A stretch of DNA of 64,000 nt from Octopus sinensis (lineage: Eukaryota). The stretch is from contig NC_043018.1 in the NCBI RefSeq assembly GCF_006345805.1, positions 22,692,001-22,756,000 on the forward strand. The letters run 5' to 3'. Positions 21,300 to 51,367 of this stretch are shown here, piece after piece. The translations under genes were made by a program, and so were the position numbers. Every line of letters starts with the position of its first letter. Position 1 is the first letter of the stretch. The notes under the pieces are model-generated. The model did no database searches. It was not told the origin of the DNA and saw nothing but the letters and a program-made list of their open reading frames with translations.

Positions 21300-23890
21300 G
21301 CCACAAGGACAGCCATTTTGGGAGAGGGGTTAAGTCGATTACATCGACCCCAGTGTGTAACTGGTACTTAATTTATTGACCCCGAAAGGATGAAAAGCAA
21401 AGTCGACCTTGGCGGAATTTGAACTCAGAACGTAGCAACAGGCAAAATACCTATTTCTTTACTACCCACAAGGGGCTAAACACAGAGGGGACAAACAAGG
21501 ACAGACGAACAGATTAAGTTGATTATATCGACCCCAGTGCGCAACTGGTACTTATTTAATCGACCCCGAAAGGATGAAAGGCAAAGTCGACATCGGTGGA
21601 ATTTGAACTCAGAACGTAGCAACAGGCAAAATACCTATTTCTTTACTATCCACAAGGGGCTAAACACAGAGGGGACAAACAAGGACAGACGAACAGATTA
21701 AGTCGATTATATCGACCCCAGGGTGCAACTGGTACTTATTTAATCGACCCCGAAAGGATGAAAGGCAAAGTCAACATCGGTGGATTTGAACTCAGAACGT
21801 AGCAACAGGCAAAATACCTATTTCTTTACTATCCACAAGGGGCTAAACACAGAAGGGACAAACAAGGACAGACAAACGGATTAAGTCGATTATATCGACC
21901 CCAGTGTGCAACTGGTACTTATTTAATCGACCCCGAAAGGATGAAAGGCAAAGTCGACATCGGTGGAATTTGAACTCAGAACGTAGCAACAGGCAAAATA
22001 CCTATTTCTTTACTATCCACAAGGGGCTAAACACAGAAGGGACAAACAAGGACAGACACAACGGATTAAGTTGATTATATCGACCCCAGTGCGCAACTGG
22101 TACTTATTTAATCGACCCCGAAAGGATGAAAGGCAAAGTCGACATCGGTGGAATTTGAACTCAGAACGTAGCAACAGGCAAAATACCTATTTCTTTACTA
22201 TCCACAAGGGGCTAAACACAGAGGGGACAAACAAGGACAGACGAACAGATTAAGTTGATTATATCGACCCCAGTATGCGACTGGTACTTAATTAATCGAC
22301 CCCGAAAGGATGAAAGGCAAAGTCGACATCGGTGGAATTTGAACTCAGAACGTAGCAACAGGCAAAATACCTATTTCTTTACTATCCACAAGGGGCTAAA
22401 CACAGAGGGGACAAACAAGGACAGACGAACAGATTAAGTTGATTATATCGACCCCAGTGCGCAACTGGTACTTATTTAATCGACCCCGAAAGGATGAAAG
22501 GCAAAGTCAACATCGGTGGAATTTGAACTCAGAACGTAGCAACAGGCAAAATACCTATTTCTTTACTATCCACAAGGGGCTAAACACAGAAGGGACAAAC
22601 AAGGACAGACAAACGGATTAAGTCGATTATATCGACCCCAGTGTGCAACTGGTACTTATTTAATCGACCCCGAAAGGATGAAAGGCAAAGTCGACATCGG
22701 TGGAATTTGAACTCAGAACGTAGCAACAGGCAAAATACCTATTTCTTTACTATCCACAAGGGGCTAAACACAGAAGGGACAAACAAGGACAGACAAACGG
22801 ATTAAGTCGATTATATCGACCCCAGTGTGCAACTGGTACTTATTTAATCGACCCCGAAAGGATGAAAGGCAAAGTCGACATCGGTGGAATTTGAACTCAG
22901 AACGTAGCAACAGGCAAAATACCTATTTCTTTACTATCCACAAGGGGCTAAACACAGAGGGGACAAACAAGGACAGACGAACAGATTAAGTCGATTATAT
23001 CGACCCCAGTGTGCAACTGGTACTTATTTAATCGACCCCGAAAGGATGAAAGGCAAAGTCGACATCGGTGGAATTTGAACTCAGAACGTAGCAACAGGCA
23101 AAATACCTATTTCTTTACTATCCACAAGGGGCTAAACACAGAGGGGACAAACAAGGACAGACGAACAGATTAAGTCGATTATATCGACCCCAGTGTGCAA
23201 CTGGTACTTATTTAATCGACCCCGAAAGGATGAAAGGCAAAGTCGACATCGGTGGAATTTGAACTCAGAACGTAGCAACAGGCAAAATACCTATTTCTTT
23301 ACTATCCACAAGGGGCTAAACACAGAGGGGACAAACAAGGACAGACGAACGGATTAAGTTGATTATATCGACCCCAGTGCGCAACTGGTACTTATTTAAT
23401 CGACCCCGAAAGGATGAAAGGCAAAGTCGACATCGGTGGAATTTGAACTCAGAACGTAGCAACAGGCAAAATACCTATTTCTTTACTATCCACAAGGGGC
23501 TAAACACAGAGGGGACAAACAAGGACAGACGAACAGATTAAGTTGATTATATCGACCCCAGTGCGCAACTGGTACTTATTTAATCGACCCCGAAAGGATG
23601 AAAGGCAAAGTCGACATCGGTGGAATTTGAACTCAGAACGTAGCAACAGGCAAAATACCTATTTCTTTACTATCCACAAGGGGCTAAACACAGAGGGGAC
23701 AAACAAGGACAGACGAACAGATTAAGTTGATTATATCGACCCCAGTGCGCAACTGGTACTTATTTAATCGACCCCGAAAGGATGAAAGGCAAAGTCAACA
23801 TCGGTGGAATTTGAACTCAGAACGTAACGGCAGGCAAAATGCCACTAAGCATTTCGCCCGGCACACTAACAAACCTGCCAGCTTGCCACC
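21300..23890 (-). repeat. SINE family B-derived tandem array: one head plus ~13.5 copies of a 184-bp body
   Basis: The junction ACCTATTTCTTTACT recurs every 184 bp from ~21449 to ~23657 (13 junctions). There is a single A-box head at ~23840-23890. Confidence 0.95.
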
Positions 23891-26319
23891 TTAATAATAA
23901 TAATTCTTTCTACTGGAAGCACAGGGTTTCAAATTTGGGAGAAGGGATTAAGTCGATTACATCAACCCCAGTGCGTAACTGGTACTTATTTAATTGACCC
24001 CGAAAGGATGACAGGCAAAATCAACTTCAGCAGAATTTGAACTCAGATTGAAGTGAGTGGCAAAATATTGCTATGCATTTCACCCAGTGTGCTAACGATT
24101 CTGCCAGCTTGCCACCTTAACAACAATATTTTCTACTAAGGCCTGAAATTTTTGTGGAGGGGACCAGTCAATTATATCGACCCCAGTATGCGACTGGTAC
24201 TTAATTAATCGACCCCGAAAGGATGAAAGGCAAAGTTGATGTCGGCAGAATTTGAACTCAGAACCTAAAGACAGATGAAATACCGCTAAGCATTTTGCCC
24301 AGGGTGCTAACATTTTTGCCAGCTTGCTGCCTTAATAATAATAAAAATAATAATCCTTTCCACTGGAAGCACAAGGGATTAAGTCGATTACATTGACCCC
24401 AGTATGTAACTGGTACTAATTTTATCAACCCCACCGAGAGGATGAAAGGCAAAGTCGACCTTGGTGGATTTCGAGTGCCAAACCTACCTAACGGTGGACA
24501 AAATACCACTAGGCATTTCTCCAAACATGCTAATGATTCTGTCAGCTCATTGCCTTTGCTAACCAACCACATGGTTCCAGGTTCAGTCCCACTGCGTGGC
24601 ATCTTGGGCAAGTGTCTTCTGCTATAGCCCCGGGCCGACCAATGCCTTGTGAGTGGATTTGGTAGACGTATATATGTATATATATATATATGTATGTATG
24701 TGTGTGTGTTTGTGTGTCTGTGTTTGTCCCCCTAGCATTGCTTGACAACCGATGCTGGTGTGTTTATGTCCCTGTTCCTTAGCGGTTCGGCAAAAAGAGA
24801 CCGATAGAATAAGTACTGGGCTTACAAAGAATGAGTCCCGGGGTCGATTTGCTCGACTAAAGGCGGTGCTCCAGCATGGCCGCAGTCAAATGACTGAAAC
24901 AAGTAAAAGAGTAAAGAGTAAATAATAATAATAGTAATAATAATAATATTTTTTTTTTTTTAAATGAACGAACTATTGAGTTTGGTTTAATGGCCTACCA
25001 ATGTATACTATGAGTTTCTTTGCCCTAGGAGTCGGGAAGACACTCGGCAAGAAATGGAAGCAAATTTGAAAGAAGAAAAAAAAAAAGTAAGAATAATAAT
25101 AATAATAAATTTATTTCTATGAGCAATTGAAATGGAAATGAGTAAAAGGAAGTTTGATGAGGAAAAAGATCATCACAGCAATGATGATGATGTTTTAAAT
25201 AGACGTGAGAGTTAAGGCAAGTAGAGTTAAAAATAATAATAATAATTTTAATAATAATGATGATGATGATGATGATGATGAACTATGTGTTTATCTCTGA
25301 AGTTTTTTTTTTTTGTTATTTCTTTTGTTGGCACCCAAAACTTCTGTCTTCAGTTCACATAATGATGATGATGAAGATGACGATGATGACGGCGATGACG
25401 ATAGTGACGGTGTCATCATTTTCATCAAATCGTTCTCCATCCTGCGTGGTGATAAAAAAGTCTGTGGTATTTTGTATGAGGTTCTGGATGGGTATATGGG
25501 TGGGTGGGGGCGGGGTGGATGGATGGATGGATGGATGGGTGGATGGGTGGGGGAGGTCTTCTTTGATTATTTGTTTTTTTTTTCTTTTCTTATTTTATTG
25601 TTTATATATAATTATTCTTCTCTTTCCCCCCACCCCACCCCCACCCGTCCTTTCTTTTTCCTGCTAAGTGGAACGAATGATCGCAGAAAGTTCTATTAGC
25701 AGAGTAACTTATTGCCATAACAACTGTCATCGCTACCATCAACATCACTGCCGCCACCACCACCATCATCATCATCATCACTATTTCTTGATAGTGTCTG
25801 TATGCCAGATGGGACATTTCATTTGGCTTAATAATAATAATAATAATCCTTTCTACAAAAGGCACAAGGCCTGAAATTTGGGGTGAGTGGATAAGTACAT
25901 TATCTCGACCCCAGTATTTCATTGGTGCTTAATTTGTCGACCCCGAAAGGAGGAAAGTCAAAGTCGACCTCAGCGGGATTTGAACTCAGAATGTAGACAC
26001 GAAAGAAAATGCCGCTAAGCATTTTGCCTGGCGAGTTAACGATTCTGCCAGCTCGCCACTAATAAAAATAATTAAAAAAATAAAAATAATAATAATAAAA
26101 AGTAATAAAAAATGAATCGTCATCGTCGCCGTCATCATCATCATCATTGTTGTTGTCATCATCAATGTCTGTTGCTGATTATGTCAATATTACAAGGTGG
26201 TGATGTTGGTGATGTTGGTGGTGGTGGTGGTGGTGGCGGTGATGGTTGTGGTGGAGGGGACATTTCCTGTCTGTGGGTTTGTTTGCTTTTTTTTTCCCCC
26301 TATTTTTTTTTCTTTTTAA

Positions 26320-26466
26320 TTAACAGTAGTCGTCGTCATCATCTTCTCGACTGTCTGTTGATTGTGCCATATTCTTCTGTGTCAGCTGCAGTTGCTGTTG
26401 CTGTTGCAGCGCATTCTGCACTTGCAGTCGTTGTTGCTGTTCAATCTGCTGCTGTTCAAGACGAGC
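26320..26466 (-). CDS. DR1: DR1 / NC2-beta coding exon 3
   Basis: Acceptor TTTTCTAG|GCT. Reads ARLEQQQIEQQQRLQVQNALQQQQQLQLTQKNMAQSTDSREDDDDDYC*: Q-rich then acidic tail typical of DR1. 147 nt, phase 0. Confidence 0.9.
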   Translation of the reverse strand, partial: ARLEQQQIEQQQRLQVQNALQQQQQLQLTQKNMAQSTDSREDDDDDYC

Positions 26467-26492
26467 CTAGAAAACGAAAAAAAAAAAACAAA

Positions 26493-26529
<37 letters not shown>

Positions 26530-26667
26530 AAGAAACAAAAAGTTTGTTGTCATGGCTTCTTTTATCTTTTATTTGTTTCAGGTAGAAGACTCTGGCCATG
26601 CTGGAGGATCACCTTGAAAGATTTTAATCAAACAAATCAAATAGATCTCAGGACTTATTTTTATTAA

Positions 26668-27736
26668 CCCTTTCGTTACCAAACCGCCCAAAGCCGCCCG
26701 AAAAAAATTTTCGTTAATGTGACCAAACCGCCCAAACCCGCCCGTATTTACCTATTCATATTTAAATGAGAATATCAGAGCAAATCTCTTTAGTACATTC
26801 GTGAAAACATATTATTCTTCGTAAAGAGTTCAACTACAGTTTTGTACAATAATCGAAGTGTAATTTTAATTCCGTGAATTTTGGGAGATTTTTTTCCGAA
26901 ATTTGTTCCTATTGTGTTTTCAAAATTTGTAATTCTGACAAAAAATGGATACGAATTTCATTATATCAAGCAGCGAGTCAGAATTCGAAGAATTTTCTAC
27001 TGAAGACCTTCGTAAATCTAACTCTATGACTGAAAAAAAAAAGCACGTGGTATTTGATAATGAATCTGATGTTTCATTTTCCGAAAGTGAAAACAGTGAA
27101 TCCGAGAGCTTCGACAGCGATAAAGAAAATGAATTGGCACCTGAATGGAGTGAAAATTTAAAAACTGTTTCGGTGATTTTTCTGAAGAAACTGGACCAAG
27201 CCAGGAGAGTAAAGCCTTAGACTATTTCTTTTTACTTTTTCGAATGAGCCTATTTGAAATCATTACGGCGGAAACGAACCGTTACACTAAATGTAAACAA
27301 AGCGAAAGAAAGGATAGTTAGTGGTTTCCCACAAACTTAAATGAAATTAAGACTATTTTGCCATAAATATTATTATGGGTATCAGAAAGTTACCCAGAAT
27401 AACAAATTCTATCGTAAAATTTTGTTGTATACCCAATTGAATATTAGCTAATAACCCATTTTCTATAGCGATGTTTGAACAAAATTTTAATAATTTTATA
27501 TTTTGTTGAATTTACCTGTATCTACCTGCAATTAGAGTCACTTTGTGACAAAAATTATAGTATAGAATTGGTTGAGAATATTTCATTAAATTATCTACCA
27601 AAAATCAGATTAATATATTGATAAATAAAAAAAGTTATAGTTGTTTAATGAAACCAGACTAAATTTATGATTATGTTAGAAATTAATTGAAACACATAAG
27701 GGGTGTATTTTGGTCAGAAATATAGTAACGAAAGGG
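26668..27736 (+). mobile_element. Internally deleted piggyBac transposon in DR1 intron 2
   Basis: TTAA TSDs (26664-26667, 27737-27740) and a 12-bp TIR CCCTTTCGTTAC/GTAACGAAAGGG. The acidic S/E/D-rich ORF at 26945-27220 continues, frameshifted, as ITAETNRY...WFPTNLNEIK...IIMGIRKLPRI, which is the piggyBac transposase N-terminal pattern. Confidence 0.85.
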
Positions 27737-29501
27737 TTAAACCTTTCACTTTTGGCAACAAATTGAAAACAACTGTATTTCACACATAAAACTTAATTAA
27801 CCTATTAATATTTTTTTTTACATTTATCACTCCATTTAGGCCATCCCATTATCATCCCACATTTCTTCAACACCCCACTAGATCTTTCCACTGCCCACAA
27901 GGGGGCAGTACTGTCCACTTTGGGAACCACTGATTTAGACGACAATTTATTCACTGTACCCAGTATGTATATATATATCACCGTGACCACCGTGACAGAC
28001 CAGGCTATCAGATATTGCTACACATCGCTGGTCACAATGCGTTTCGCATTGTTTTAGCCTTTAAATGATGCCACCCCGCTGGCTAAGCGAGCAGGCCAAC
28101 AAAAGAAAGAGTGAGAGAAAGTTGCGGCGAAAGAGTACAGCAGGGATCGCCACCACCCCCTGCCAGAGCCTTGTAGAACTTTAGGTGTTTTAGCTCAATA
28201 AACACTCACAATGCCTAGTCTAGAAATCGAAACCGTGATCCTATGATCGCGGGTCCGCTGCCCTAACCACTGGGCCATTGCGCCTTATATATATATATAT
28301 AAGGCGCAATGGCCACAACAGTACTGATGCAGGTACTGGTGCCATGTAAAAAATATCCAGTACACTCTGTGGAGTGGTTGGCATTAGGAAGAGTAGCCTG
28401 CCACAGAAACCAAGCCAAAACAGACTATGGAACTTGGTGCAGCCCCTGGCCTTACCAGCTCTGGTCAAACTGACCAACCCATGCCAGCATGGAAAATGGA
28501 TGTTAAATTATGATAAGGATAGACATACAAGCACAGGAGTGACTGTGTGGTAAGAAGCTTGCTTCCCTCGAGATGTAAAAAAAGGTAAGAGGCTAAGTGC
28601 CTTATTTTGTAAGGACGTGGAGCCCATTTGTGAAAAATGTAAGAGGCTTAGTGCCTCATTTGAAAGGACCTTGTGTCCCATTGAGGTTTACAACCTCAAT
28701 TTGTTTTTATAAAAGAGTGAAAAAGAACAATGTTTTCGGGAAGCAGCGATCATCGGGCGCCGTCTGCTTCCCTCATCAATATCATTGTTTTACTCATCAT
28801 TCACTTCATTTGTGTTGTTGTCCAGCCCGCATCTGCTTCCATTTATGTAAAGCCTTTTATGGCTAATTTGATGAAATAAAGAAGCTTGCTTCCCAACCAC
28901 ATGGTTCCGTGTTCAGTCCCACTGCATGGCACCCTGGGCAAGTGTCTTCCAGTTTTATAACTCAATATGTGAGAAATAATAGATAATTACAAAAAAATGT
29001 ATTCATCATCATCATCATCATCATTTAACGTCTGCTTTCCATGCTAGCATGGGTTGGACGGTTCAACTGGGGTCTGGGAAGCCAGAAGACTGCACTAGGC
29101 CCAGTTTGATCTGGCAATGTTTCTACGGCTGGATGCCCTTCCTAACGCCAACCACTCCATGAGTGTAGTGGGTGCTTTTTACGTGCCACCGGCACAGGTA
29201 CCAGACAAGTCTGCCAAACAGCCACGATCAGATGGTGCTTTTTATGTGCCACTGGCACGGGGGCCAGGTGAGGCTGGCAACGGCCACGAATGGATGGTGC
29301 TTTTTACGTGCCACCGGCATGAGGCCAGTCGGGGCGGCGCTGGCAACGGCCACAGGATACAGGCATGGTTCAGTGGTGGTGGTGACAATGATGGTGGTGG
29401 TGACGATTACGGTGGTGGTGGTGGTGATAAATTTAGAAAAGGAAAAACATAAAACATTTTTGAAATAAAAATGACAAAAAAAAAGAAGGAAAACCACTAA
29501 C

Positions 29502-29665
29502 TTTGGCAAATAATTCCTGCTGTTGACGTAAAAGTTCTTCTTCTGGAATGCCAAGGTTCTCAAGACGTGAGCTTCCTTTCCGTTTCTTAGCAGCAACTGC
29601 CTTGGCTTCCTCTAACACAGCGACAGCATCTTCTTTGTAAGAACTAAATCCAAGACTGTCCAATG
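29502..29665 (-). CDS. DR1: DR1 / NC2-beta coding exon 2
   Basis: Acceptor TTCTTTTAG|CA, donor AAA|GTTAGT. Reads (A)LDSLGFSSYKEDAVAVLEEAKAVAAKKRKGSSRLENLGIPEEELLRQQQELFAK, containing the hallmark RLENLGIPEEELLRQQQELFAK. 164 nt. Confidence 0.96.
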
Positions 29666-30755
29666 CTAAAAGAAAAAAAACCCACAAGAATTACATAAAA
29701 GTCAACCAGCAAGTTGCATTTAATCATTCTTCTATTCTTAGATGGTGGCCATTCTGGAGTCACATCTTTGAGAATTTTAACCCTTTTGGTACCAATCTGC
29801 CCAGGAGGGACCACCTCTGATCCGATGATACAAAATTCCTGCCTTTTAAAGCAGTCTGAAGCAGTGATTTCCAACGTTGGGGATATACCCCCACTGGCAG
29901 GGCCCAGTAATCCTTTTTTTTTTTGTGGGACAAGGAATTGTGAAAATCTTTTTTTTGCACACAGTAAACATATAACACCTATACTCAGCCGGGCCAAGCC
30001 ATCCCTCACATCATCATCATCATCATCATCATCATTATTATTTAACATCTGTTTCCCATGCTGGCATGGGTTAGATGGATTGATTGGAATCAGTAAGCCA
30101 GTGAGCTGTACCAGGCTCCAGTTTGGTTTGGCCTGGTTCCGTTCCTACGGCTGGATGCCCTTCCTAATGCCAAATTGTAATAAAATATTAAGAAGGCATA
30201 GGAGTGGCTGTGTGGTAAGTAGCTTGTTTACCAACCACATGGTTCTGGGTTCAGTCCCACTGTGTGGCACCTTGGGCAAGTGTCTTCTACTATAGCCTCG
30301 GGCCGACCAAAGCCTTGTGAGTGGATTTGGTAGACGGAAACTGAAAGAAGCCCATCGTATATATGTATATGTATATATGCATGTGTGTGTTTGTCCCCCT
30401 AGCATTGCTTGACAACCGATGCTGGTGTGTTTACATCCCCGTTACTTAGCGGTTCGGCAAAAGAGACCGATAGAATAAGTACTGGGCTTGCAAAAGAATA
30501 AGTCCTGGGGTCGAGTTGCTCAATTAAAGGCGGTGCTCCAGCATGGCCGCAGTCAAATGACTGAAACAAGTAAAAGAGTAAAGAGTAATAAAGTTGTTTT
30601 TACCCAACCACTGGTGGTGCATATAGTTTTCTGGAAAGATATATTAGGGGTGTGGGGGCCTGGGGGGGTGGAATAGGTTGGGAAATACTGGTTTAAAAAT
30701 AAACCCTGTCATCAAATCAAACATTTGTTGATTTATGTTCCAAACACCACTTTAA

Positions 30756-30963: not shown

Positions 30964-31610
30964 TTAAAAACTCTTTCTAATTTTGGCTCAAGGTCAACGA
31001 TTCTGAAAGAAGGGGGCAAGTTGATTACACTGACTTCAGTATTTGACTGCTCCTTACTTTATATAGACCCTGCAAGGATCACGGCCGAAGTCAACTTCAG
31101 TGGGATCATCATCATCATCATCGTTTAACGTCCGTTCTCCATGCTAGCATGGGTTGGACGGTTCGACCGGGGATCTGGGAAGCCAGAAGGCTGCACCAGG
31201 CTCCAGTCTCATCTGGCAATGTTTCTACAGCTGGATGCCCTTCCTAACGCCAACCACTCCGTGAGTGTAGTGGGTGCTTTTTATGAGTCACATATATATA
31301 AGGCGCTGGAGTAGCTGTATGGTAAGTAGCTTGCTTACCAACCACATGACTTGCTTCTAATGAGTTTCTATGGAGACATCTGAGGATTCTACCCCAATGA
31401 ATCCTCCCAGAGAAAATGGATGGAGGGAGGGATGGAAAAAAAAATCAGTAAATTTACTTAGAAATACAATCACTGTCCAATGCTAAAAGAAATCTCACAA
31501 GAAATACATGGTCAGTTGGTCAGAAGATTACATTTTATCATTCTTCTATTCTTGGACTGTTGCCATGATAGGGACTTCTTTGAGAATTTGGATCCTTTCA
31601 GTACCAACCT

Positions 31611-31839
31611 ATTTCTTTACTACCCACAAGGGGCTAAACACAGAGAGGATAAACAAGGACAGACAAACAGATTAAGTCGATTATATCGAGCCCAGTGCGT
31701 AACTGGTACTTATTTAATCGACCCCGAAAGGATGAACGGCAAAGTCGACCTCGGCGGAATTTGAATTCAGAACGTAGCGGCAGACGAAATACCGCTAAGC
31801 ATTTTCGCCTGACATGCTAACATTTCTGCCAGCTCGCCA
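31611..31839 (-). mobile_element. Family B SINE with a 17-bp target-site duplication
   Basis: CCTTTCAGTACCAACCT at 31594-31610 and 31840-31856 flanks a full monomer. Confidence 0.9.
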
Positions 31840-31970
31840 CCTTTCAGTACCAACCTGCCCTGGGACCACTTCTGACTCTATGAGACAAACTTCCTGCTTT
31901 TTAAAATGGTCTAAAATAAACCATCTCATCAGATACAGTTATGAAACAGCCAAAGTAGAGTCATACATAC

Positions 31971-40682: not shown

Positions 40683-41224
40683 AAACAGATCTACTTTTGC
40701 ATTTTGTTCCAAGAATGGATTTGTGGTTCCAACAATTTTTTTTTTGGGGGGGTGGGGTGGAATTACACAGTGAGAGAGAGGTACTTTTTGGAGTTTACGG
40801 CAAGCTATTGATACCTCAACATCATCATCATCATCATCATCATCGTCTAACGTCCGTTTTTCCGTGCTAGCACGGGTTGGACGGTTCGACCGGGGTCTGG
40901 GAAGCCAGGGGCTGCACCAGGCTCCAGTTTGATCTGGCAGAGTTTCTACAGCTGGATGCCCTTCCTAACGCCAACCACTCCGCGAGTGTAGTGGGTGCTT
41001 TTTACGTGCCACCTGCACAGGTGCCAGGGGTCTGGCATCGGCCACGATCGGTTGGTGCTTTTAACGTTCCACAGGAACAATTGTTCCGCATCATTTCGTT
41101 CAGTCATTAGGTTGGAATTTTAGTGTAACAGTCAAACTAGCTTAGTGTATCACCGCATGGATGTACAGTCCAGCTAACTGGGCACAGGTACCATTTTGAT
41201 ATACAAGCCACCTTGCAAGTAGTC

Positions 41225-42161
41225 GGACGAAATGCTTAGCGGTATTTCATCTGCCGTTACGTTGTGAGTTCAAATTCCGCCGAGGTCAACTTTACCTTTC
41301 ATCCTTTCGGGGTCGATAAATTAAGTACCAGTTACGCACTGGGGTCGATGTAATCGACTTAATACCTATGTCTGTCCTTGTTGTCCCCTCTGTGTTTAGC
41401 CCCTTGTGGGTAATAAAGAAATAGGTATTTCAATCTGCCGTTACGTTGTGAGTTCAAATCCGCCGGGCGAGGTCGCTTTGCCTTTCACATCCTTTCGGGG
41501 TCGATAAATTAAGTACCAGTTACGCACTGGGGTCGATGTAATCGACTTAATACCTATGTCTGTCCTTGTTGTGTTCCCCTGTGTGTTAGCCCCTTGTGGG
41601 TAATAAAGAAATAGGTATTTCGTCTGCCGTTACGTTGTGAGTCCAAATTCCGCCGAGGTCGACTTTGCCTTTCATCCTTTCGGGGTCGATAAATTAAGTA
41701 CCAGTTACGCACTGGGGTCGATGTAATCGACTTAATACCTATGTCTGTCCTGTTTGTTCCCTCTGTGTTTAGCCCCTTGTGGGTAATAAAGAAATAGGTA
41801 TTTCGTCTGCCGTTACGTGTGAGTTCAAATTCCACGAGGTCGACTTTACCTTTCATCCTTTCGGGGTCGATAAATTAAGTACCAGTTACGCACTGGGGTC
41901 GATGTAATCGACTTAATACCTATGTCTGTCCTTGTTTGTTCCCTCTGTGTTTAGCCCTGGTGGTAATAAAGAAATAGGTATTTCGTCTGCCGTTACGTTG
42001 TGAGTTCAAATTCCGCCGAGGTCGACTTTACCTTTCATCCTTTCGGGGTCGATAAATTAAGTACCAGTTACGCACTGGGGTCGATGTAATCGACTTAATA
42101 CCTATGTCTGTCCTTGTTTGACCCCTCTATGTTTAGCCCCTTGTGGGTAATAAAGAAATAA
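41225..42161 (+). repeat. SINE family B tandem array, ~5 units
   Basis: Junction AAAGAAATAG|GTATTTC at about 41423, 41613, 41796 and 41976. Confidence 0.9.
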
Positions 42162-42855
42162 GTATATAGGTTATCAGAGTGAGACACAGTCCACCTGGCT
42201 GTATGTAGGTACCACAGTGAAGTACTGTTCAACTGGCAGTATTTGAGTACCAGACTGAAGTAGATTGTAGCAGTAATTCGAAACTGAATCCCTGGATAGG
42301 TAGTCAGACATCATGAGTAACACCATAGTTTCATACGATTGCTCCATTAACCAACTAATCAGTGAGAAGTGATGGCATGGACAGATTTTCTCGATCAATT
42401 TAGAATTTGAATTCCAGTCCCCTCTAAAAATCGTTTGGCATGCATTTTACAAGCCAGATTGTTGTTGTTGTTTGTTCCTTCTCGAGCCATGCCTGGCTCA
42501 TAGGGGCCGGTTTCCTGGTTTCTTGGCATATGCATTCCCCCACCTTGACGGGACGCCGGTCCGTCGCAGATCAGCTGCAAGGTGCAGGAGGAAAGAGTGA
42601 GAGAAAGTTGTGGCGAAAGAGTCAGCAGAAGTCCACCACTACCTTCTGCCGGAGCCGCGTGGAGCTTAGGTGTTTCGCTCATAAACACACACATCGCCCG
42701 GTCTGAGATTCGAACCCGCGATCCCTCGACCACGAGTCCGCTGCTCTAACCAGTAGACCATGTGCCTCCACACCTACTAGCCAGATGACCCAGCAAAACA
42801 GCTATGATAAATGATGCAGATGGATAACAGGAACTTCCATCACCACAGATATATA

Positions 42856-43273
42856 CCTATTTCTTTACTACCCACAAGGGGCTAAACACAGAGGGGACAA
42901 ACAAGGACAGACAAATGGATTAAGTCGATTACATCGACCCCAGTGCATGACTGGTGCTTAATTTATCGACCCCGAAAGGATGAAAGGCAAAGTCGACCTC
43001 GGCGGAATTTGAACTCAGAACGTAGCAGCAGACGAAATACCTATTTCTTTACTATCCACAAGGGGCTAAACACAGAGGGGACAAACAAGGACAGACAAAT
43101 GGATTAATTCGATTACATCGACCCCAGTGCATGACTGGTGCTTAATTTATCGACCCCGAAAGGATGAGAGGCAAAGTCGACCTCGGCGGAATTTGAACAC
43201 AGAACGTAGCAGCAGACGAAATACCGCATAGCATTTCACCCGGCGTGCTAACGATTCTACCAGCTTGCCGCCT
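42856..43273 (-). mobile_element. SINE family B dimer (head plus 2 bodies)
   Basis: Same junction as the longer arrays, at ~43040. Confidence 0.9.
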
Positions 43274-44836
43274 TACCATTAGTTCCCAGTTATGTTAGGC
43301 AAGCCGCATGTTGTCATATCAGTAGCTTGCCATAGACTTTAAGCAGTATTTCTCTCCAAGTATGTAATCATTGCTGTTGTTATTAGTAAAAGGCCAACTT
43401 ACTTTGTCTTTATGTGCAATAATAAAACCTCGTGTTACATGTTCATGGGTGTTGTTTGGTTAATTCTCTATGCAGCCCAAGAAACATTTACAGTCACCAC
43501 CACTGACCAGCCCCTAGAGACTGCAACAAGATTATATCAGAGAGAGGAATGACCCACCAAGTTTTATATAGGTAAAAGGATAAAGACCCCCTTCGGTCAT
43601 CAATGACCATGGGATTGCACCTAGAAAGTCCCCCTCCAAGGCACAAGTCCAAGCAAGGTTGTTTATGAAAGATCAGCAGTCGCCCATGCATGCCAGCCTC
43701 TCCTGTCCATGCCACTCATGTTATCCAACGGAAAGGCAAAGGAACTGATACAGCAACTCATTTCCACAGATGAGTGAACTGGAGCAACGCGAAATAAAGT
43801 GTCTTGCTCAAGAACATAACACACAGCCCAGCCCAGGAATCGAACTTACTACCTCATGATTTTGCGTTGCTGTTATGTTCTGAGTTCAAATTCCACCAAG
43901 GTCAACCTTGCCTTTCATCCTCTCAGGGTCAATTAAATAAGTACCAGTTACACACTGGGGTCGGTGTAATCGACTGCACCTGTTTGTCTTTGTTTGTCCT
44001 CTCTGTGTTTAGCCCCTTGTGGGTAGTAAAGAAATAGATATTTTGCGTTGCTGTTATGTTCTGAGTTCAAACTCCGCCAAGGTCGACGTTGCCTTTCATC
44101 CTATTGGGGTCAATTAAATAAGTACCAGTTACACACTGGGGTCCATGTAATCAACTTAATCCCTTTGTCTGTCCTTGTTTGTCCCCTCTATGTTTAGCCT
44201 CCTCCCTACCTGTGGGCAATAGGGTAATAAAGAAATAAATATCTGTAGCGTAATATATGACTTTCTAATTAAGGACAAATTAGTCACCAATTGAGTAATT
44301 AATTAGCTTAGATAAAATACTGACAAATGAGCAGAAAGATAAGTATAGGTAGGTACCACAGTGAAGTACATTCCATCTAGTTGTACGCAAGTACCGGAGT
44401 ATAATTCCATCTAGCTGTAAGTAGGTACCACCATGGAGCCAGATCCTCTTTGCTATAAGTGTGTTTTAGATAAATGTCCATATCAGGCTGTGTGGGTAAG
44501 AAGCTTGCTTTCTATCTGCATGTATCAGGGTTCAGTTCTGCTGCATGGCACTTTGGGCAACTATCTTCTGCTATAGCTCTTTTCTGATCAAAGCCTTGTA
44601 AGTGGATTTAGTGGATGGAAACTGAAAGAAGCCCGTTGTATATATGTTCTATTCTTCTACTTGTTTCCATCATTTGACTGCGGCCATGCAGGAGCATCGT
44701 CTTTAGTTGAACAAATCAACATCAGGACTTATTCTTTGTAAGCCTAGTATTTATTCTATCGAACCGCTAAGTTACAGAGATGTAAACACACCAACATCGG
44801 TTGTCAAGTGATGGTGGGGGACAAACACAGATATGC

Positions 44837-44880
<44 letters not shown>

Positions 44881-45061
44881 TTTATTTAAAGCAGCAGAAA
44901 ATTCAACAAAACCTGTTACTCTGACTTTCACGTTGCCGTTCGCCGGACAGTTTTTGCTAGAATAGAACTGATACGTCAATTACTCTACCACGTATTACTC
45001 TACCACTGGTATTTGAGTACTCTTTTTTCCACCTTGTTTCACATTTATGTGTTTACTCCGG

Positions 45062-45113
<52 letters not shown>

Positions 45114-45168
45114 TCCCACAGACATGGACATTTACATACACACCTACATACATTCATGTATACACAGA

Positions 45169-45208
<40 letters not shown>

Positions 45209-45356
45209 CGATGGGCTTCTTTCAATTCCTGTCTACCAAATCCACTCAAAAGGCTTTGGTCAGCCCAAGGCTATAGTAGAAGACACTTGTCCCAAGGTAC
45301 CACACAGTGGGACTGAACCCAGAACAATGCGGTTGGGAAGTAAGCTTCTTACCAAA

Positions 45357-45812
45357 AAAGCCATGCCTATTTATGTGTGTCTTTGTGTCTGTGTTTGTTC
45401 ACAAAGCCATGCCTATTATGTGTGTCTTTGTGTCTGTGTTTGTTCACAAAGCCATGCCTATTTATGTGTGTCTTTGTGTCTGTGTTGTTCACAAAGCCAT
45501 GCCTATTTATGTGTGTCTTTGTGTCTGTGTTTGTTCACAAAGCCATGCCTATTTATGTGTGTCTTTGTGTCTGTGTTTGTTCACAAAGCCATGCCTATTT
45601 ATGTGTGTCTTTGTGTCTGTGTTTGTTCACAAAGCCATGCCTATTTATGTGTGTCTTTGTGTCTGTGTTTGTTCACAAAGCCATGCCTATTTATGTGTGT
45701 CTTTGTGTCTGTGTTTGTTCACAAAGCCATGCCTATTTATGTGTGTCTTTGTGTCTGTGTTTGTTCACAAAGCCATGCCTATTTATGTGTGTCTTTGTGT
45801 CTGTGTTTGTTC
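45357..45812 (+). repeat. 46-bp minisatellite, ~10 copies
   Basis: AAAGCCATGCCTATTTATGTGTGTCTTTGTGTCTGTGTTTGTTCAC repeated. Confidence 0.95.
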
Positions 45813-46119
45813 TCCCCACCCACCGCCGACCAATAGAATAAGTATTAGGCTTACAAAGAATAAGTCCTGGGGTCGATTCCTTCAACTAAAACCCTTCAGG
45901 GTAGTGCTCCAGCATGGCTGCAGTCGAATGACTGAAACAAATAAAAGAAAAAAAAGAATAGGATAATGAAAATTTTTTGGTTCTTATTTACATTATTTAA
46001 GCAGAGTAAAATAAATTATCTTTCTGCTCATTTGTCAGTATTTTATCTAAGCTAATTAATAACTCAGTCGGTGACTAATTTGTCCTTAATTAGAAAGTCA
46101 TATATTACACTACAGATAT

Positions 46120-47797
46120 TTATTTCTTTATTACCCTATTGCCCACAGGAGGGGAGGAGGCTAAACATAGAGGGGACAAACAAGGACAGACAAAGGGATT
46201 AAGTTGATTACACCGACCCCAGTGTGTAACTGGTACTTATTTAATCGACTCCCGAGAGGATGAAAGGCAAGGTCGACCTTGGCAGAGTTTGAACTCAGAA
46301 CATAACAGCAACGCAAAATATCTATTTCTTTACTACCCACAAGGGGCTAAACACAAAGAGGACAAACAAGGACAGACAAACAGATGAAGTCAATTATATC
46401 GACCCCAGTGTGTAACTGGTACTTATTTAATTGACCCCCGAGAGGATGAAAGACAAGGTCGACCTTGGCGGAATTGAACTCAGAACATAACAGCAACGCA
46501 AAATATCTATTTCTTATAGCCACAAGGGGCTAAACACAAAGAGGAAAAACAGATGAAGTCAAATTATACGACCCCAGGTGTAACTGGTACTTATTTAATC
46601 GACCCCGAAAGGATGAAAGGCAAGGTCAACCTTGGCTGAATTGGAACTCAGAACATAACAGCAATGCAAAATACCTATTTCTTACTACCACACGGGGCTA
46701 AAACACAACGAGGACAACCAAGACAGACAAAAGATGCAGTCGATTACACCGACCCAAGTGTGTAACTGGTACTTATTTTCCCCGAGATGATGAAAGGCAA
46801 GGTCGACCTTGGCGGAATTTGAATCAGAACATAACAGCAACGCCAAAATATCTATTCTTTACTACCCACAAGGGGCTAAACACAAAGAGGACAAACAAGG
46901 ACAGACAAACAGATGAAGTCAATTATATCGACCCCAGTGTGTAACTGGTACTTATTTAATTGACCCCCGAGAGGATGAAAGGCAAGGTCGACCTTGGCGG
47001 AATTTGAACTCAGAACATAACAGCAACGCAAAATATCTATTTCTTTACTACTCACAAGGGGCTAAACACAAAGAGGACAAACAGATGAAGTCAATTATAT
47101 CGACCCCAGTGTGTAACTGGTACTTATTTATTCGACCCCGAAAGGATGAAAGGCAAGGTCGACCTTGGCGGAATTTGAACTCAGAACATAACAGCAATGC
47201 AAAATACCTATTTCTTTACTAGCCACAAGGGGCTAAACACAAAGAGGATAAACAGATGAAGTCAATTATATCGACCCCAGTGTGTAACTGGTACTTATTT
47301 AATCGACCCCCGAGAGGATGAAAGGCAAGGTCGACCTTGGCGGAATTTGAACTCAGAACATAACAGCAATGCAAAATACCTATTTCTTTACTACCCACAA
47401 GGGGCTAAACACAAAGAGGACAAACCAAGACAGACAAACAGATGCAGTCGATTACACCGACCCCAGTGTGTAACTGGTACTTATTTTATCGACCCCCGAG
47501 AGGATGAAAGGCAAGGTCGACCTTGGCGGAATTTGAACTCAGAACATAACAGCAACGCAAAATACCTATTTCTTTACTACCCACAAAGGGCTAAACACAA
47601 AGAGGACAAACAAGGACAGACAAACAGATGAAGTCAATTATATCGACCCCAGTGTGTAACTGGTACTTATTTTATCGACCTCCAAGAGGATGAAAGGCAA
47701 AGTCGACCTCGGTGGAATTTGAACTCAGAATGTAACGGCAGATGAAATACCGCTAAGTATTTCACCCAGCGTGCTAACGACTCTGCCAGTTCACCAC
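46120..47797 (-). repeat. SINE family B tandem array, ~9 units
   Basis: The junction TA(T/C)CTATTTCTTTACT recurs every ~172-185 bp. Single head at ~47745-47797. Confidence 0.9.
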
Positions 47798-48174
47798 CCC
47801 ACAGATAATGACCAACTTTGCCCAGTCTGTGTCTCCATGTGTGTTTTTTTTTTTTTTTTTACCTTTCTTCCTTCAGTTTCAGACATTAGACAATGACCAT
47901 GCTGGGGCAGTGCCTCGAAGAATTTTTACTCCAACAAATCAAACCCAGTATTTCATTGTATATTTTTTTTCCCGTTTGTTTGTTTTAAGCCTGATATTTA
48001 TTTTGTTACTGGGAAATAAACAAACCAACACCGGTTATCAAGCGGTGGGAGCAGGGGATAAACACAGACACAATCATATGCACACACACACATACATGCA
48101 CATGCACACACACGCACCACCAGCAAAAATATTTTTTCCTTTGTCTTCCCTTCTTGGGATCTTTCCTTCTCCTT

Positions 48175-48209
48175 GTTTCCGACGAAGAGCTCCGCTCGAA
48201 ACGTTAAAC
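48175..48209 (+). ncRNA. Minimal hammerhead-like motif with CCGACGA core
   Basis: GTTT-CCGACGA-A-GAGC(TCC)GCTC-GAAA-CG-TT-AAAC. Homologues at 12180-12212 (+) and 58723-58755 (-), with degenerate relatives at ~11463-11494 (+) and 57765-57799 (-). Confidence 0.55.
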
Positions 48210-48499
48210 CCTCCTTCCCTTCTTTCCTGAGCGTCAAATAATACTTTAATTGTTCCATGTCCTCGCGTTGTTGTTTTTTTCTGTGTTTTCTTGTTTGGAT
48301 TAACTATATATATATATATACGCAAAGGGCTTCATTCAGTTTCTATTTACCAGATCCATTCACAAGGCTTTGGTCAGCCTGGGGCTATACCAGAAGACAT
48401 CTGTGCTTGATGCAACACAGTGGGACTGAACCCAGGACCTTGTGGTTGAGAGGCAAACTTCTTCCAACTCAGTCATACCTGCACCTATAGCTCACCTAA

Positions 48500-48990
48500 A
48501 TTTCATACATGCATATATGCATACATATATACATGCACACATACATACATACACACAAATACACACATGCATACATATATACATACACACATATATACAC
48601 ATATAAACATGCATACATGCATATACACACACATATATACATACATACATACACATACATGCACACATACATACATGCATATATACATACACACACATAC
48701 ACACATGCATACATATATACATACACACATACATATATACACATATAAACATGCATACATACATATACACACACATATATATATCCATACACACACATGT
48801 ATACATACATACACAAATACATACATACATTCATACACATACACACATGCATACATATATATATACATACATACATGCATACACATGCATACATATATAC
48901 ATACACATACATAATGTATACATACATATACACACACACACATACATACATACATACACACATTTATACACACACACACACCACACACAC
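48500..48990. repeat. Compound (TACA/CA/TA)n microsatellite
   Basis: Direct reading of the sequence. Confidence 0.95.
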
Positions 48991-50389
48991 ATACTAAGAG
49001 AGAGAGAGAGACAGAGACAGAAAGAGAATAAGCAAAAAAATACTTTAACCAAGTCGTTTAACCCCAGGTCAGCTCCGAACCAGCAGAGGCCTTCCAATCC
49101 TGATAATTCCATGTTTATTTAAGCAAAAACTAACGTCATCTAAAACTACACTAAACAATGTCCTCATCATTTTTCTAAGAACTCCTAAGTGATTTTGATG
49201 CTCTTTCTAGGCCAAATGACCACATAAAGGCTATTTTCTTTTCAATTTGTGTTCAAATAAATACAGAAATACATATACTTCCCACTCGTGGTGTTCATGA
49301 TGGAGTTAAATCAACAGTTTTTACACGCCGAGACTATCTAAGGTTACATTAACCAATGTGTTCATCATTCTTCTTAAGGTTGTAAGATCTGAATTTGTAG
49401 TAGATTTGGTTGCTATTTCTAGCAGTTCAAACGACTACATAAAAGCTACATCTATTTTATTCAAATGTTAACCTACTTTCCACTTGTGATGGAGGTGGTG
49501 CTGGTGGTTTTTACTCGCCAATTCCTACAGGCAAAGAACGTCTAAGACAGCATTAACCATGTGGGGTCCGGGGACGGCACACGGAAGGGCCCGGCCCGGG
49601 CGGCACACACTCTAGCTACGCCAGTGTTCACAGCCTGAAATCTTAAGAAAATAGGCGAGCACATTGGTTAATGTTGTCTTAGATGTTCTTTGCCTGTAGG
49701 AATTGGTGACTAAAGATCACCGCCGCCGCCACCACAATTAGTAAGTAAATATATAAGACAGCGTGGAGGCACAATGGCCCAGTGGTTAGGGCAGCGAACT
49801 CGCGGTCATAGGATCGCGGTTTCGATTCCCAGACCGGGCGTTGTGAGTGTTTATTGAGCGAAAACACCTAAAGCTCCACGAGGCTCCGGCAGGGGATGGT
49901 GGTGATCCCTGCTGTACTCTTTCACCACAACTTCTCTCACTCTTACTTCCTCTTTCTGTTGTACCTGTTATTCAAAGGGCCGGCCTTGTCACTTTCTGTG
50001 TCACGCTGAATATCCCCGAGAACTACGTTAAGGGTACACGTGTCTGTGGAGTGCTCAGCCACTTACACGTTAATTTCACGAGCAGGCTGTTCCGTTGATT
50101 CGGTTCAACCGGAACCCTCGTCGTCGTAACCGACGGAGTGCTTCCATCCATATAAGACAGCATTAACCAATCTGCTCGCCCATTTTCCTAAGATGGCAGG
50201 TCGTGAATTTGTGTGTGATTTTGTTGCTATTTCTAACAGTTCGAGCGACTACGTACAAGCTTTTTCCTTGTCGACTTGTGTTCTAATAAATATTTACTTA
50301 CTAATTGTGGTGGAGAAAGGCAGTGGTCTTTGGTCTTCAGTCACCAATTCTACAGGCAAAGAACGTCTAAGACAACGTTAAACAATGTG

Positions 50390-51367
50390 AGGCGGCGAGC
50401 TGGCAGAATCGTTAGCACGCCGGGCGAAATGCTTAGCGGTATTTCGGCTGCCGTTACGTTCTGAGTTCAAATTCCGCCAAGGTCGACTTTGCCTTTCATC
50501 CTTTCGAGGTCGATAAATTAAGTACCAGTTACGCACTGGGGTCGATGTAATCGATTTAATACCTATGTCTGTCCTTGTTTGTTCCCTCTGTGTTTAGCCC
50601 CTAGTGGGTAATAAAGAAATAGGTATTTCGGCTGCCGTTACGTTCTGAGTTCAAATTCCACCAAGGTCGACTTTGCCTTTCATCCTTTTGAGGTCGATAA
50701 ATTAAGTACCAGTTACGAACTGGGGTCGATGTAATCGACTTAATACCTATGTCTGTCCTTGTTTGTCCCCTCTATGTTTAGCCCCTTGTGGGTAATAAAG
50801 AAATATGTATTTCGTCTGCCATTACGTTCTGAGTTCAAATTCCGCCAAGGTCGACTTTGCCTTTCATCCTTTCGGGGTCGATTAAATAAGTACCAGTTAC
50901 ACACTGGTGTCGATATAATCGACTTCATCCGTTTGTCTGTCCTTGTTTGTCCCCTCTATGTTTAGCCCCTTGTGGGTAATAAAGAAATATGTATTTCGTC
51001 TGCCATTACGTTCTGAGTTCAAATTCCGCCAAGGTCGACTTTGCCTTTCATCCTTTCGAGGTTGATAAATTAAGTACCAGTTACACACTGGGGTCGATGT
51101 AATCGACTTAATACCTATGTCTGTCCTTGTCTTTTTCTTCCCCTCTATGTTTAGCCCCTTGTGGTAATAAAGAAATATGTTATTTCGTCTGCCATTACGT
51201 CTGAGTTCAAATTCGCCAAGGTCGACTTTGCCTTTCATCCTTTCGGGGTCGATTAAATAAGTACCAGTTACACACTGGTGTCGATATAATCGACTTCATC
51301 CGTTTGTCTGTCCTTGTTTGTCCCCTCTATGTTTAGCCCCTTGTGGGTAGTAAAGAAATAGGTATTT
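50390..51367 (+). repeat. SINE family B tandem array (head plus 5 bodies) within an imperfect TSD
   Basis: Head GGCGGCGAGCTGGCAGAATCG, junctions at about 50622, 50805, 50989 and 51177. Flanks are AACGTTAAACAATGTG / AACATTAACCAATGTG. Confidence 0.9.

What the first reader, a model, noticed from the sequence alone, without database searches (positions are those of the whole stretch)
21300..51367. SINE arrays built as one head plus (184-bp body)n with a shared junction: rolling-circle-like multimers
Seen: arrays at 21300-23890 (~13.5 units), 41225-42161 (5), 42856-43273 (2), 43860-44238 (2, an inverted copy of part of the next), 46120-47797 (9) and 50390-51367 (5). Each has private diagnostic bases, yet all join the SINE 3' end to the same internal position: AAAGAAATAG|GTATTT, with minor variants. 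That position is the 3' arm of a head hairpin (GGCGAAATGC-TTAGCG-GTATTTCGTC), so repeats keep the B box but lose the A box. The unit begins GT and ends AG. The 50390 array lies within one TSD and ends in a further GGTATTT stub. Inference: either SINE RNA is cut at the hairpin loop and circularised, then reverse-transcribed as a rolling circle, or RT re-primes at GAAAT microhomology, or a dimeric master copy expands locally after insertion.
Basis: partly seen in the sequence, partly recalled or inferred. Interest (0 to 1): 0.75.

Follow-up and report, generated by a model that had tools for sequence, protein, structure and literature searches.

The report
Self-targeting SINE builds tandem arrays
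The head-plus-repeated-body arrays of this tRNA-derived SINE are real, and their shared joint lies exactly at the element's own favourite insertion motif (GGTAT), so they were likely started by new copies landing inside older copies and likely enlarged afterwards by unequal crossing-over, not by rolling circles.

Summary
All six arrays exist at the stated places. The joint is genome-wide: 42,475 exact hits.

The SINE ends exactly at ...AAAGAAATA. Target-site duplications (TSDs) start right after that base, and in the T-tail subfamilies they often start with GGTA. The joint is therefore the SINE 3' end placed on an internal GGTAT.

- A G just before GTATTT is required: 42,475 joints have G and 431 have C, although 23 of 48 monomer heads carry C there.
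- A second joint, AAATA|AGAAACG at head position 15, has 2,796 hits. In my sample it goes with the subfamily whose TSDs start AGAA.
- 81 loci show old head, then 11-20 nt from GGTAT, then A-rich filler, then a new head. In 15 of 18 fetched, that segment recurs right after a SINE 3' end. This is direct nested insertion with a TSD.

Most multimers are dimers of unlike subfamilies. The long arrays in the window carry private variants and multi-unit blocks, which indicates later DNA-level amplification.

Rolling-circle RNA is not supported: units are mixed and no ribozyme was found. RT template switching remains a live rival for the single-head forms.

This is a new variant of known SINE behaviour, of moderate interest.

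The parts
23845..23890 (-). A1 head (tRNA-like 5' part with the A-box-like word)
   Evidence: blastn with the window's own head
21451..23840 (-). A1: 13 full 184-bp units, each joint AAATA|GGTATTTTGC
   Evidence: The joint 29-mer is private: 13 copies here and 1 elsewhere in the genome. Block-wise shared variants.
21254..21450 (-). A1 3'-most unit with the tail of the short-type subfamily and its (ATT)11 tail. Likely the founder element.
41222..42160 (+). A2: 5'-truncated head remnant plus 5 units (TAAT type)
42857..43272 (-). A3: head plus 2 near-identical units (4 differences). The 3' flank starts GGTATAT.
43859..44342 (+). A4: inverted segmental copy of the 3' end of A5 with its flank (46016-46504)
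   Evidence: blastn 93.9% over 490 bp
46125..47798 (-). A5: head (47751-47798) plus 9 units with indels. The last unit has an insertion in its tail.
50391..51368 (+). A6: head, 5 units in the order TAAT-like, TAAT-like, TAGT-like, TAAT-like, TAGT-like, then a GGTATTT stub
31594..31855 (-). Reference monomer: head plus one body ending AAATA, flanked by the 16-nt TSD GGTTGGTACTGAAAGG, with no A tail
18526..18732 (+). Second monomer of the long-tail type, 5'-truncated in the head

Best explanation
The arrays are multimers of a tRNA-derived, tail-less SINE. Their shared joint is the element's exact 3' end (...AAAGAAATA) set against an internal GGTAT, which is also the family's preferred target-site start. 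The joint is likely made when a new copy is target-primed into that motif inside an older SINE copy, and the long arrays in this window likely grew afterwards by unequal crossing-over.

**Shown**
- The exact element end, the TSDs and their start motifs.
- The requirement for G at -1 of the acceptor.
- A second joint at a second target-like motif.
- Nested full-length insertions at this site, with their own TSD and A-rich filler.
- Mixed-subfamily multimers.
- Private variants and multi-unit blocks in the long arrays.

**Inferred**
- In the common single-head forms (H-B-B), the 5' end of the incoming cDNA was resolved on the homologous old copy. Alternatively, a double-head intermediate later lost one head by recombination.
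- Some multimers were afterwards copied whole by retrotransposition.
- The array growth was by unequal exchange rather than by another DNA process.
For: 1. **Element end and TSDs.** In 29 of 39 monomers in the table, a shared word of 7-23 nt starts directly after AAATA. An A-rich filler lies before the head.
2. **Target starts differ by subfamily** (counts read by me):
   - TAAT tail: GGTA in 9 of 14.
   - TAGT tail: TAT in 16 of 33 and GGTA in 8 of 33.
   - CAAT tail: AGAA in 27 of 100 and GGTA in 3 of 100.
   - Fisher p = 6e-8, 6e-4 and 7e-4; GGTA against chance, p = 3e-29.
3. **Acceptor base.** Joints with G at -1 number 42,475 and those with C number 431, while monomer heads show G in 21 and C in 23 of 48. 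p = 3e-34.
4. **Second joint.** AAATA|AGAAAYGTTAGCA at head position 15 has 2,796 hits against 0 for the control. It follows a GGGCAA/GGGCAG-type tail in 4 of the 5 cases in my sample.
5. **Direct nested insertion.**
   - The pattern old head end + GGTATTTCG + 0-28 nt + new head start has 81 hits against 0 for the control.
   - Of 18 fetched, 15 repeat the between-heads segment (>=11 nt, <=1 mismatch) right after a SINE 3' end. At least 9 of these include private variants.
   - 14 inserts are a head plus one unit; one is a head plus three units.
6. **Carry-over at the unit start.** In 44 adjacent unit pairs that are not recent duplicates, shared non-majority bases at body 1-16 number 25, against 13.9 +/- 3.0 for shuffled partners (0 of 2000 shuffles reach 25). 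At body 33-105 the count is 30 against 30.9.
7. **Relative age.** The upstream unit is less diverged than the downstream one in 15 of 20 dimers (Wilcoxon p = 0.025).
8. **Head type.** Heads of multimers whose first unit is TAGT carry the C-type loop in 13 of 49, against 20 of 33 TAGT monomers (p = 0.003).
9. **Later local growth.**
   - A1 units differ by 4.4 on average but by 13.9 from the majority.
   - The A1 joint 29-mer occurs 13 times in A1 and once elsewhere.
   - There are block-wise shared variants in A1, a duplicated two-unit block in A6, and repeated haplotypes in L075.
Against: - **Numbers.** Double-head nested forms are rare: 81 exact hits against 42,475 joints. The model therefore needs nearly all nested events to be resolved on homology, or one head to be lost later. 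Neither is shown.
- **Excess over expectation.** By my own rough arithmetic (not a tool result), SINE-internal GGTAT sites are a few percent of all GGTA sites. Yet they take about two thirds of the GGTA-type ends in the list. That excess needs an extra cause.
- **Truncated composites.** Four composites (L008, L014, L090, L107) start with a 5'-truncated upstream unit that abuts non-SINE DNA. Nested insertion cannot give this; co-insertion of a multi-unit cDNA can.
- **Weak age signal.** CpG retention is 0.84 against 0.80 in dimers (p = 0.063), and 0.68 against 0.62 in long/short pairs (p = 0.12).
- **Where the start-sharing sits.** It lies mostly at the polymorphic positions 13-16 (25 of 62) rather than at 1-12 (6 of 34).
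- **Sampling.** The samples were seeded on exact 16- or 23-mers in one 14-Mb stretch of one contig, so old copies are under-sampled.
Confidence: 0.55

Rival explanations
1. RNA-level template switching. While copying one SINE RNA, the reverse transcriptase reaches GGUAU and its nascent cDNA end (...ATACC) is re-primed on the 3' end of a second SINE RNA. Several units are then made in one insertion event.
For: - Multimers are frequent and fall off with unit number: 51, 22, 4, 4, 2 and 1 elements have 1, 2, 3, 4, 5 and 10 units.
- Four composites have a 5'-truncated first unit next to non-SINE DNA.
- One TSD-delimited insert holds three units (L125).
- Units of most dimers are as far apart as unrelated copies, with no shared private bases (14 of 16). 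This fits joining at the time of insertion.
Against: - It does not predict carry-over of the downstream unit's first ~16 nt into the upstream unit.
- It does not predict the older downstream unit.
- It does not produce the double-head forms with TSD.
- It needs an unproven 3' extension GGUA on the acceptor RNA to explain the G at -1.
- None of 8 headless single units starts at the joint site, so there is no sign of a stop there.
Confidence: 0.2
2. One or a few dimeric or multimeric master copies are transcribed and retrotransposed whole, and the copies then expand locally.
For: - Among multimers the mode is 2 units: 29 of 39 in the joint-seeded sample and 22 of 33 in the end-seeded sample.
- The majority unit has no run of four T (as read), so read-through by RNA polymerase III is conceivable.
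- 5'-truncated composites exist.
- Local expansion itself is supported.
Against: - The last units belong to many subfamilies: several short-type tails, plus CAAT, TAAT and TAGT. The same joint must therefore have arisen many times.
- CAAT ends are almost never followed by a unit (2-3 of 100), so CAAT elements are mainly monomers that sometimes gained an upstream unit.
- Nested events with their own TSD show de novo births of the joint.
Confidence: 0.1
3. DNA-only origin. A monomer that landed on a GGTAT target has the body flanked by two GGTAT words, and slippage or unequal exchange between them duplicates exactly 184 bp.
For: A3 has two units 4 differences apart, 2 shared private bases, and a flank that starts GGTATAT. 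L007 has two units 9 differences apart.
Against: Most dimers join unlike subfamilies or unrelated copies, which duplication in place cannot give.
Confidence: 0.07
4. Rolling-circle reverse transcription of a circularised 184-nt SINE RNA cut in the hairpin loop.
For: The joint lies at the start of the 3' arm of a predicted hairpin. Arrays have one head and many bodies.
Against: - Mixed subfamilies occur within arrays, and last units carry foreign tails.
- Subsets of units share variants in blocks.
- No ribozyme or other Rfam family was found in the arrays at E<=1.
- The acceptor needs G at -1 and equals the TSD start motif.
- A second joint exists at another target-like motif.
- The hairpin is no better than 19 of 200 shuffles.
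Confidence: 0.03

Closest known systems
Nested, target-site-specific insertion of non-LTR retroelements into their own kind (recalled examples: Zepp of Chlorella; Dong/R4 in (TAA)n). Recalled, not looked up.
   Same: A new copy is target-primed at a preferred short motif that the element itself carries, giving head-to-tail or nested clusters with TSDs.
   Different: Here the motif lies inside the SINE body, 47 nt from the 5' end. The result is therefore one head plus repeated bodies. The usual product has lost the second head.
Composite and dimeric SINEs, and module exchange by RT template switching or non-allelic recombination (Kramerov and Vassetzky 2011, Nishihara 2006 and Akasaki 2010, as cited in passages of PMC4758252 read; dimeric SINE of shrew mole, PMC13023118, search listing only)
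   Same: Two or more SINE modules are joined head to tail and propagated.
   Different: These are not fixed dimers. The joint is re-made many times between different subfamilies, at one motif, with 1 to 14 units.
SINE- or MITE-derived tandem arrays and satellites (recalled from the reptile and bivalve literature; my searches did not return those papers)
   Same: An interspersed element seeds a tandem array that then grows by unequal exchange, with higher-order blocks.
   Different: The arrays stay short (<=14 units seen), are dispersed by the tens of thousands, and keep a SINE head and flanking TSD.
Retrozymes and hammerhead-bearing tandem repeats that give circular RNAs (recalled)
   Same: Short tandem units of 170-400 bp.
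   Different: No self-cleaving ribozyme was found, and the units are not uniform within arrays.
Octopus CORE-SINE OR2 (Ohshima and Okada 1994, as cited in PMC4758252)
   Same: A tRNA-derived SINE of a cephalopod. By eye, the middle of the body resembles a CORE domain.
   Different: Membership was not tested, because no reference sequence was available to me.

Membership tests
LINE-mobilised tRNA-derived SINE | Flanking target-site duplications of variable length | tested here: met
   A word of 7-23 nt starts directly after AAATA in 29 of 39 monomers in the table
LINE-mobilised tRNA-derived SINE | tRNA-like head with internal A and B boxes | tested here: inconclusive
   An A-box-like word with 2 mismatches at head 11-21. 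The B-box-like word has 3 mismatches ungapped. ARAGORN finds no tRNA. The 5' part folds with paired ends.
LINE-mobilised tRNA-derived SINE | High copy number, dispersed, with 5'-truncated copies | tested here: met
   85,000 exact 3' ends. 8 of 51 single units in sample 1 lack the head and start at body positions 7-90.
LINE-mobilised tRNA-derived SINE | 3' tail shared with a partner LINE | not tested
   No partner LINE was sought
Nested target-specific insertion | TSD made of the host element's own sequence on both sides of the insert | tested here: met
   15 of 18 fetched double-head loci, at least 9 with private variants
Nested target-specific insertion | The acceptor motif equals the motif at ordinary target sites | tested here: met
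   GGTA starts 17 of 47 T-type flanks. The joint acceptor is GGTAT, with G at -1 in 42,475 against C in 431.
Rolling-circle / circular-RNA tandem repeats (retrozyme-like) | Self-cleaving ribozyme in the unit | tested here: not met
   Rfam scan of 20000-52000 at E<=1 gave no ribozyme family in the arrays
Rolling-circle / circular-RNA tandem repeats (retrozyme-like) | Units of one array are copies of one template | tested here: not met
   Mixed subfamilies and foreign last units
Rolling-circle / circular-RNA tandem repeats (retrozyme-like) | Circular RNA exists | not testable with these tools
   No RNA holder was listed. Joint reads could not be told from array transcripts.
Tandem array grown by unequal exchange (satellite-like) | Array-private variants and multi-unit (higher-order) blocks | tested here: met
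   The A1 29-mer occurs 13 times in A1 and once elsewhere. Blocks are seen in A1, A6 and L075. TRF period 373 in A2.
Fixed dimeric SINE family (Alu-like master) | Constant unit number, and the same two halves in all copies | tested here: not met
   1-14 units. Second units are CAAT (9), TAAT (5) or TAGT (5) of 19, and many are short-type.

The most novel reading that the evidence does not exclude
The SINE carries a heritable 'target memory'. Its transcript reads a few bases into whatever follows AAATA, and those bases pair with the nicked target. Daughters therefore land on sites that start like the mother's flank: GGTA, TATA or AGAA, according to subfamily.

A copy followed by its own GGTAT motif then breeds RNAs that home to the same motif inside other SINEs. 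The result is a self-reinforcing maker of multimers, and so of seeds for satellite arrays. CpG decay of GGTATTTCG to GGTATTTTG in the next unit would supply the polymerase III terminator.
Probability: 0.15. Interest if true: 0.75.

Novelty: new variant of a known kind. Interest (0 to 1): 0.5.

Why it matters
**Scale.** Roughly four in ten exact 3' ends of the T-tail subfamilies of a very abundant SINE are joined to the inside of another SINE unit. That is 42,475 joints against about 85,000 to 113,000 ends.

**Annotation.** Standard repeat annotation would read these as fragments or as tandem repeats.

**Birth of tandem DNA.** The case gives a concrete, countable route from an interspersed element to short tandem arrays. 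A target motif inside the element makes dimers, and dimers give unequal exchange something to work on.

**Target choice.** It also exposes subfamily-specific target-site starts in a tail-less SINE. This bears on how the partner reverse transcriptase chooses and primes its targets, and it can be tested with a retrotransposition assay.

Tried and rejected
- **Rfam** at E<=1 over 20000-52000 gave only microRNA-like hits on simple repeats.
- **ARAGORN** found no tRNA.
- **Sequencing runs**: no RNA holder was listed.
- **Read laying with contigs of four runs**: high-copy repeat matches swamped the tables.
  - The only usable rows are error-free contigs of organisms B and C across both outer borders of A3.
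  - These show the insertion is shared but say nothing on unit number. No contig bridged the SINE.
- **CpG-based ages.** The first try on 8-12 elements and the larger try gave only trends.
- **The second genomic copy of A1's private 29-mer** (L136) was checked as a possible offspring or source of A1. It is an unrelated composite, about 84% identical.
- **Head type as a test** between nested insertion and template switching fits both readings.
- **A candidate TSD around the truncated composite L014** (10 nt, 1 mismatch, 13 nt off the tail) is too weak to count.
- **The comparison 'CAAT in second units against monomers'** is biased by my seed, which excluded CAAT tails, and is not used.
- **Earlier notes of this scan:** none exist for this genome.
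- **Literature.** Searches found no paper describing these arrays. Two octopus genome and repeat papers (PMC13282606 and PMC9795677, passages only) do not mention them. Their supplements were not read.
- **Partner LINE:** not sought.

Full report
**Observation**

The window is G000:C22:22692001-22756000 in a 2.72-Gb genome. From the look of its SINEs I take the genome to be a cephalopod's. That is recall; no call names the organism.

TRF and blastn with the window's own head (50391-50438) and first unit (50439-50622) confirm all six arrays:
- A1: head 23845-23890, 13 full 184-bp units at 21451-23840, and a 14th unit at 21303-21450.
- A2: 5 units at 41242-42160.
- A3: 2 units plus head at 42857-43272.
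- A4: 43859-44342, an inverted copy of 46016-46504 (93.9% over 490 bp).
- A5: head plus 9 units at 46159-47798.
- A6: head plus 5 units at 50391-51361, with a GGTATTT stub.

All 31 joints in the window read AAATAGGTATTT or a close variant.

**Anatomy of the element**

- Monomers are a 48-nt head plus a 184-nt body. One lies in the window at 31609-31841, with a 16-nt TSD.
- In a table of 39 monomers and 15 multimers, the shared flank word starts directly after ...AAAGAAATA in most cases (29 of 39 monomers, words of 7-23 nt).
- A few extra A-rich bases (TAA, AAA) lie between the 5' TSD and the head. There is no A tail.
- The element therefore ends at AAATA.
The fold is not better than 19 of 200 shuffles.
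- An A-box-like word lies in the head and a B-box-like word in the body.

**Census**

| Pattern | Exact hits | Reversed control |
|---|---|---|
| Joint 23-mer | 42,475 | 0 |
| 3' end GGGTARTAAAGAAATA + 18 free bases + a non-G base | 85,000 | 15 |

I fetched two samples:
- Sample 1: every locus in the first 100 places of the 3'-end list. This gave 76 loci in C1:0-9.05 Mb.
- Sample 2: 40 loci from the joint list, in C1:9.05-13.6 Mb.

In sample 1, 84 elements hold at least one long-tail unit. Of these, 51 have one unit, 22 two, 4 three, 4 four, 2 five and 1 ten. In sample 2, 29 of 39 multimers have two units. Both samples favour young copies and copies with many units.

The last unit of a multimer is a short-type body with its own tail in 18 of 33 cases (sample 1) and 24 of 39 (sample 2) (sequences).

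The window is unusual. Four of its 9 elements have five or more units, against 3 of 84 in sample 1 (p = 0.0013). I have no explanation for this clustering.

**The joint equals the target motif**

Long-tail units fall into tail types TAGT, TAAT and CAAT. I read the flanks from the lists:

| Tail type | Flank starts |
|---|---|
| TAAT | GGTA in 9 of 14 |
| TAGT | TAT in 16 of 33; GGTA in 8 of 33 |
| CAAT | AGAA in 27 of 100; TAT in 22; GGTA in 3 |

- These differences are significant, and GGTA is far above chance.
- In the TSD table the GG is present in the 5' copy too, so it is target sequence and not part of the element.
- The internal acceptor reads GC|GGTATTT. Monomer heads end in G there in 21 cases and in C in 23 of 48. 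Joints with C number 431 against 42,475 with G.
- A second recurrent joint, AAATA|AGAAACGTTAGC, puts the 3' end on head position 15. In my sample it follows a GGGCAA/GGGCAG-type tail in 4 of 5 cases. It has 2,796 exact hits.

Each joint is therefore the 3' end of a subfamily set on an internal word that looks like that subfamily's ordinary target start.

**Direct evidence for nested insertion**

- A pattern for old head end + GGTATTTCG + 0-28 free bases + new head start has 81 hits against 0 for the control. Some of these lie in 65-76-bp 'head arrays'.
- Of 18 loci fetched, 15 repeat the between-heads segment (>=11 nt, <=1 mismatch, counted from GGTAT) right after a SINE 3' end. In at least 9 the repeat includes variants private to that locus.
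- The segment is followed by the same A-rich filler seen at ordinary 5' junctions.
- In 14 of the 15 the insert is a head plus one unit. In one (L125) it is a head plus three units.
- These are ordinary target-primed insertions whose target was the GGTAT inside an older SINE. They create exactly the shared joint.

**Single-head multimers, the common form**

*For a nested origin:*
- Adjacent units that are not recent duplicates share non-majority bases at body 1-16 more often than shuffled partners do: 25 against 13.9 +/- 3.0, and 0 of 2000 shuffles reach 25. At 33-105 there is no excess. This is expected if the old copy's TSD-length start is carried into the new upstream unit.
- The upstream unit is less diverged in 15 of 20 dimers (p = 0.025).
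- Heads of TAGT-first multimers are depleted of the C-type loop: 13 of 49 against 20 of 33 (p = 0.003).

*Against, or for co-insertion:*
- Double-head forms are few compared with joints.
- SINE-internal sites are used far more often than their share of GGTA sites would predict (my rough arithmetic).
- Four composites begin with a truncated unit next to non-SINE DNA.
- CpG-based ages differ only as trends.
- The start-sharing sits mainly at the polymorphic positions 13-16.
- The head-type result also fits a model in which only RNAs with a G-starting flank can serve as acceptors (5 of 14).

I conclude that the retrotransposition machinery makes the joint at GGTAT. I hold nested insertion with homology-assisted resolution, or later loss of one head, to be the main route (about 0.55). 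RT template switching comes second (about 0.2). Some whole-multimer retrotransposition is likely on top of either.

**Long arrays**

- In 14 of 16 dimers the two units are no closer to each other than to unrelated copies. In A1, A3, A5, A6, L075, L011 and L054 the units are each other's nearest relatives. L094's neighbouring units differ by only 1-8 positions.
- A1's units differ by 4.4 on average but by 13.9 from the majority. The A1 joint 29-mer occurs 13 times in A1 and once elsewhere, and that other copy is unrelated.
- Seven columns in A1 carry variants shared by subsets of units in blocks, and most units have no singleton variants.
- A6 reads TAAT-like, TAAT-like, TAGT-like, TAAT-like, TAGT-like, with units 3 and 5 alike at 12 of 13 informative columns. 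This indicates a duplicated two-unit block.
- L075 repeats haplotypes in pairs. TRF also sees a 373-bp period in A2.
- This is the pattern of stepwise DNA-level exchange, not of one burst from one template.

**Rolling circle**

Nothing specific supports it:
- No ribozyme family matched.
- Units within arrays are mixed, and last units carry foreign tails.
- None of 8 headless single units starts at the joint site.
- A circle explains neither the G requirement nor the second joint.

**Comparison with what is known**

Template switching and non-allelic recombination are the routes discussed in print for SINE module exchange (passages of PMC4758252). My searches found no description of these arrays. 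I read only passages of the two octopus papers opened and none of their supplements.

Filed as a new variant of known SINE behaviour: nested target-specific insertion, followed by growth of the array.

**Caveats**
- The flank motifs were counted by eye from the printed lists.
- The majority references were built from the sampled copies themselves.
- All sampled loci come from one 14-Mb stretch of one contig, plus 20 loci chosen by pattern.
- No relative's genome could be compared.

Noticed in passing
window 20134-20776 and 23720-24344: Head-to-tail arrays (period 226-227 bp, 2.8 copies each) of complete short-type SINEs with (ATT)n tails flank A1 on both sides, in the same orientation. They look like repeated insertion into the microsatellite tail of the previous copy.
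   Followed up: no
L135 (G000:C1:195358000-195360200); also C3430, C7:15322782-15323084, C4:103048075-103048275: 'Head arrays': up to 10 tandem copies of SINE head + ~16 nt of body + AA (period 65-76 bp). These are presumably a double-head nested insertion that was expanded by unequal exchange.
   Followed up: partly
genome-wide: The first bases of the TSD depend on the SINE subfamily, and even on the base at head position 48, which lies 185 nt from the 3' end. With G there, the flank starts with G in 16 of 21. With C there, it starts with T in 13 of 23. The cause is unknown: different partner LINEs, or RNA read-through into the flank.
   Followed up: partly
window 21300-51367: Four arrays of five or more units lie within 30 kb, against 3 of 84 elements in the genome sample (p = 0.0013). 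There is also an inverted segmental copy (A4/A5). The regional cause is unexplained.
   Followed up: partly
window 42470-42780: A different high-copy tRNA-like element lies on the minus strand. It has a GGTTCGAATC-type B box and very deep cover in all four laid runs.
   Followed up: no
window 15681-15797, 19387-19676, 29171-29319 (also about 41000-41070): A 62-67-bp tandem repeat family (GGTGCTTTTTAYGTGCCACCGGCAC...) recurs at several places in the window.
   Followed up: no
window 6811-7777 and 45357-45812: There is a 472-bp duplication (2.1 copies, 98%) bounded by (TA)n, and a 46-bp x 10 array (99%) between A4 and A5.
   Followed up: no
window 54949-55877 and 62143-62929: Very long microsatellites: (TA) about 477 copies and (TACA) about 199 copies.
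   Followed up: no
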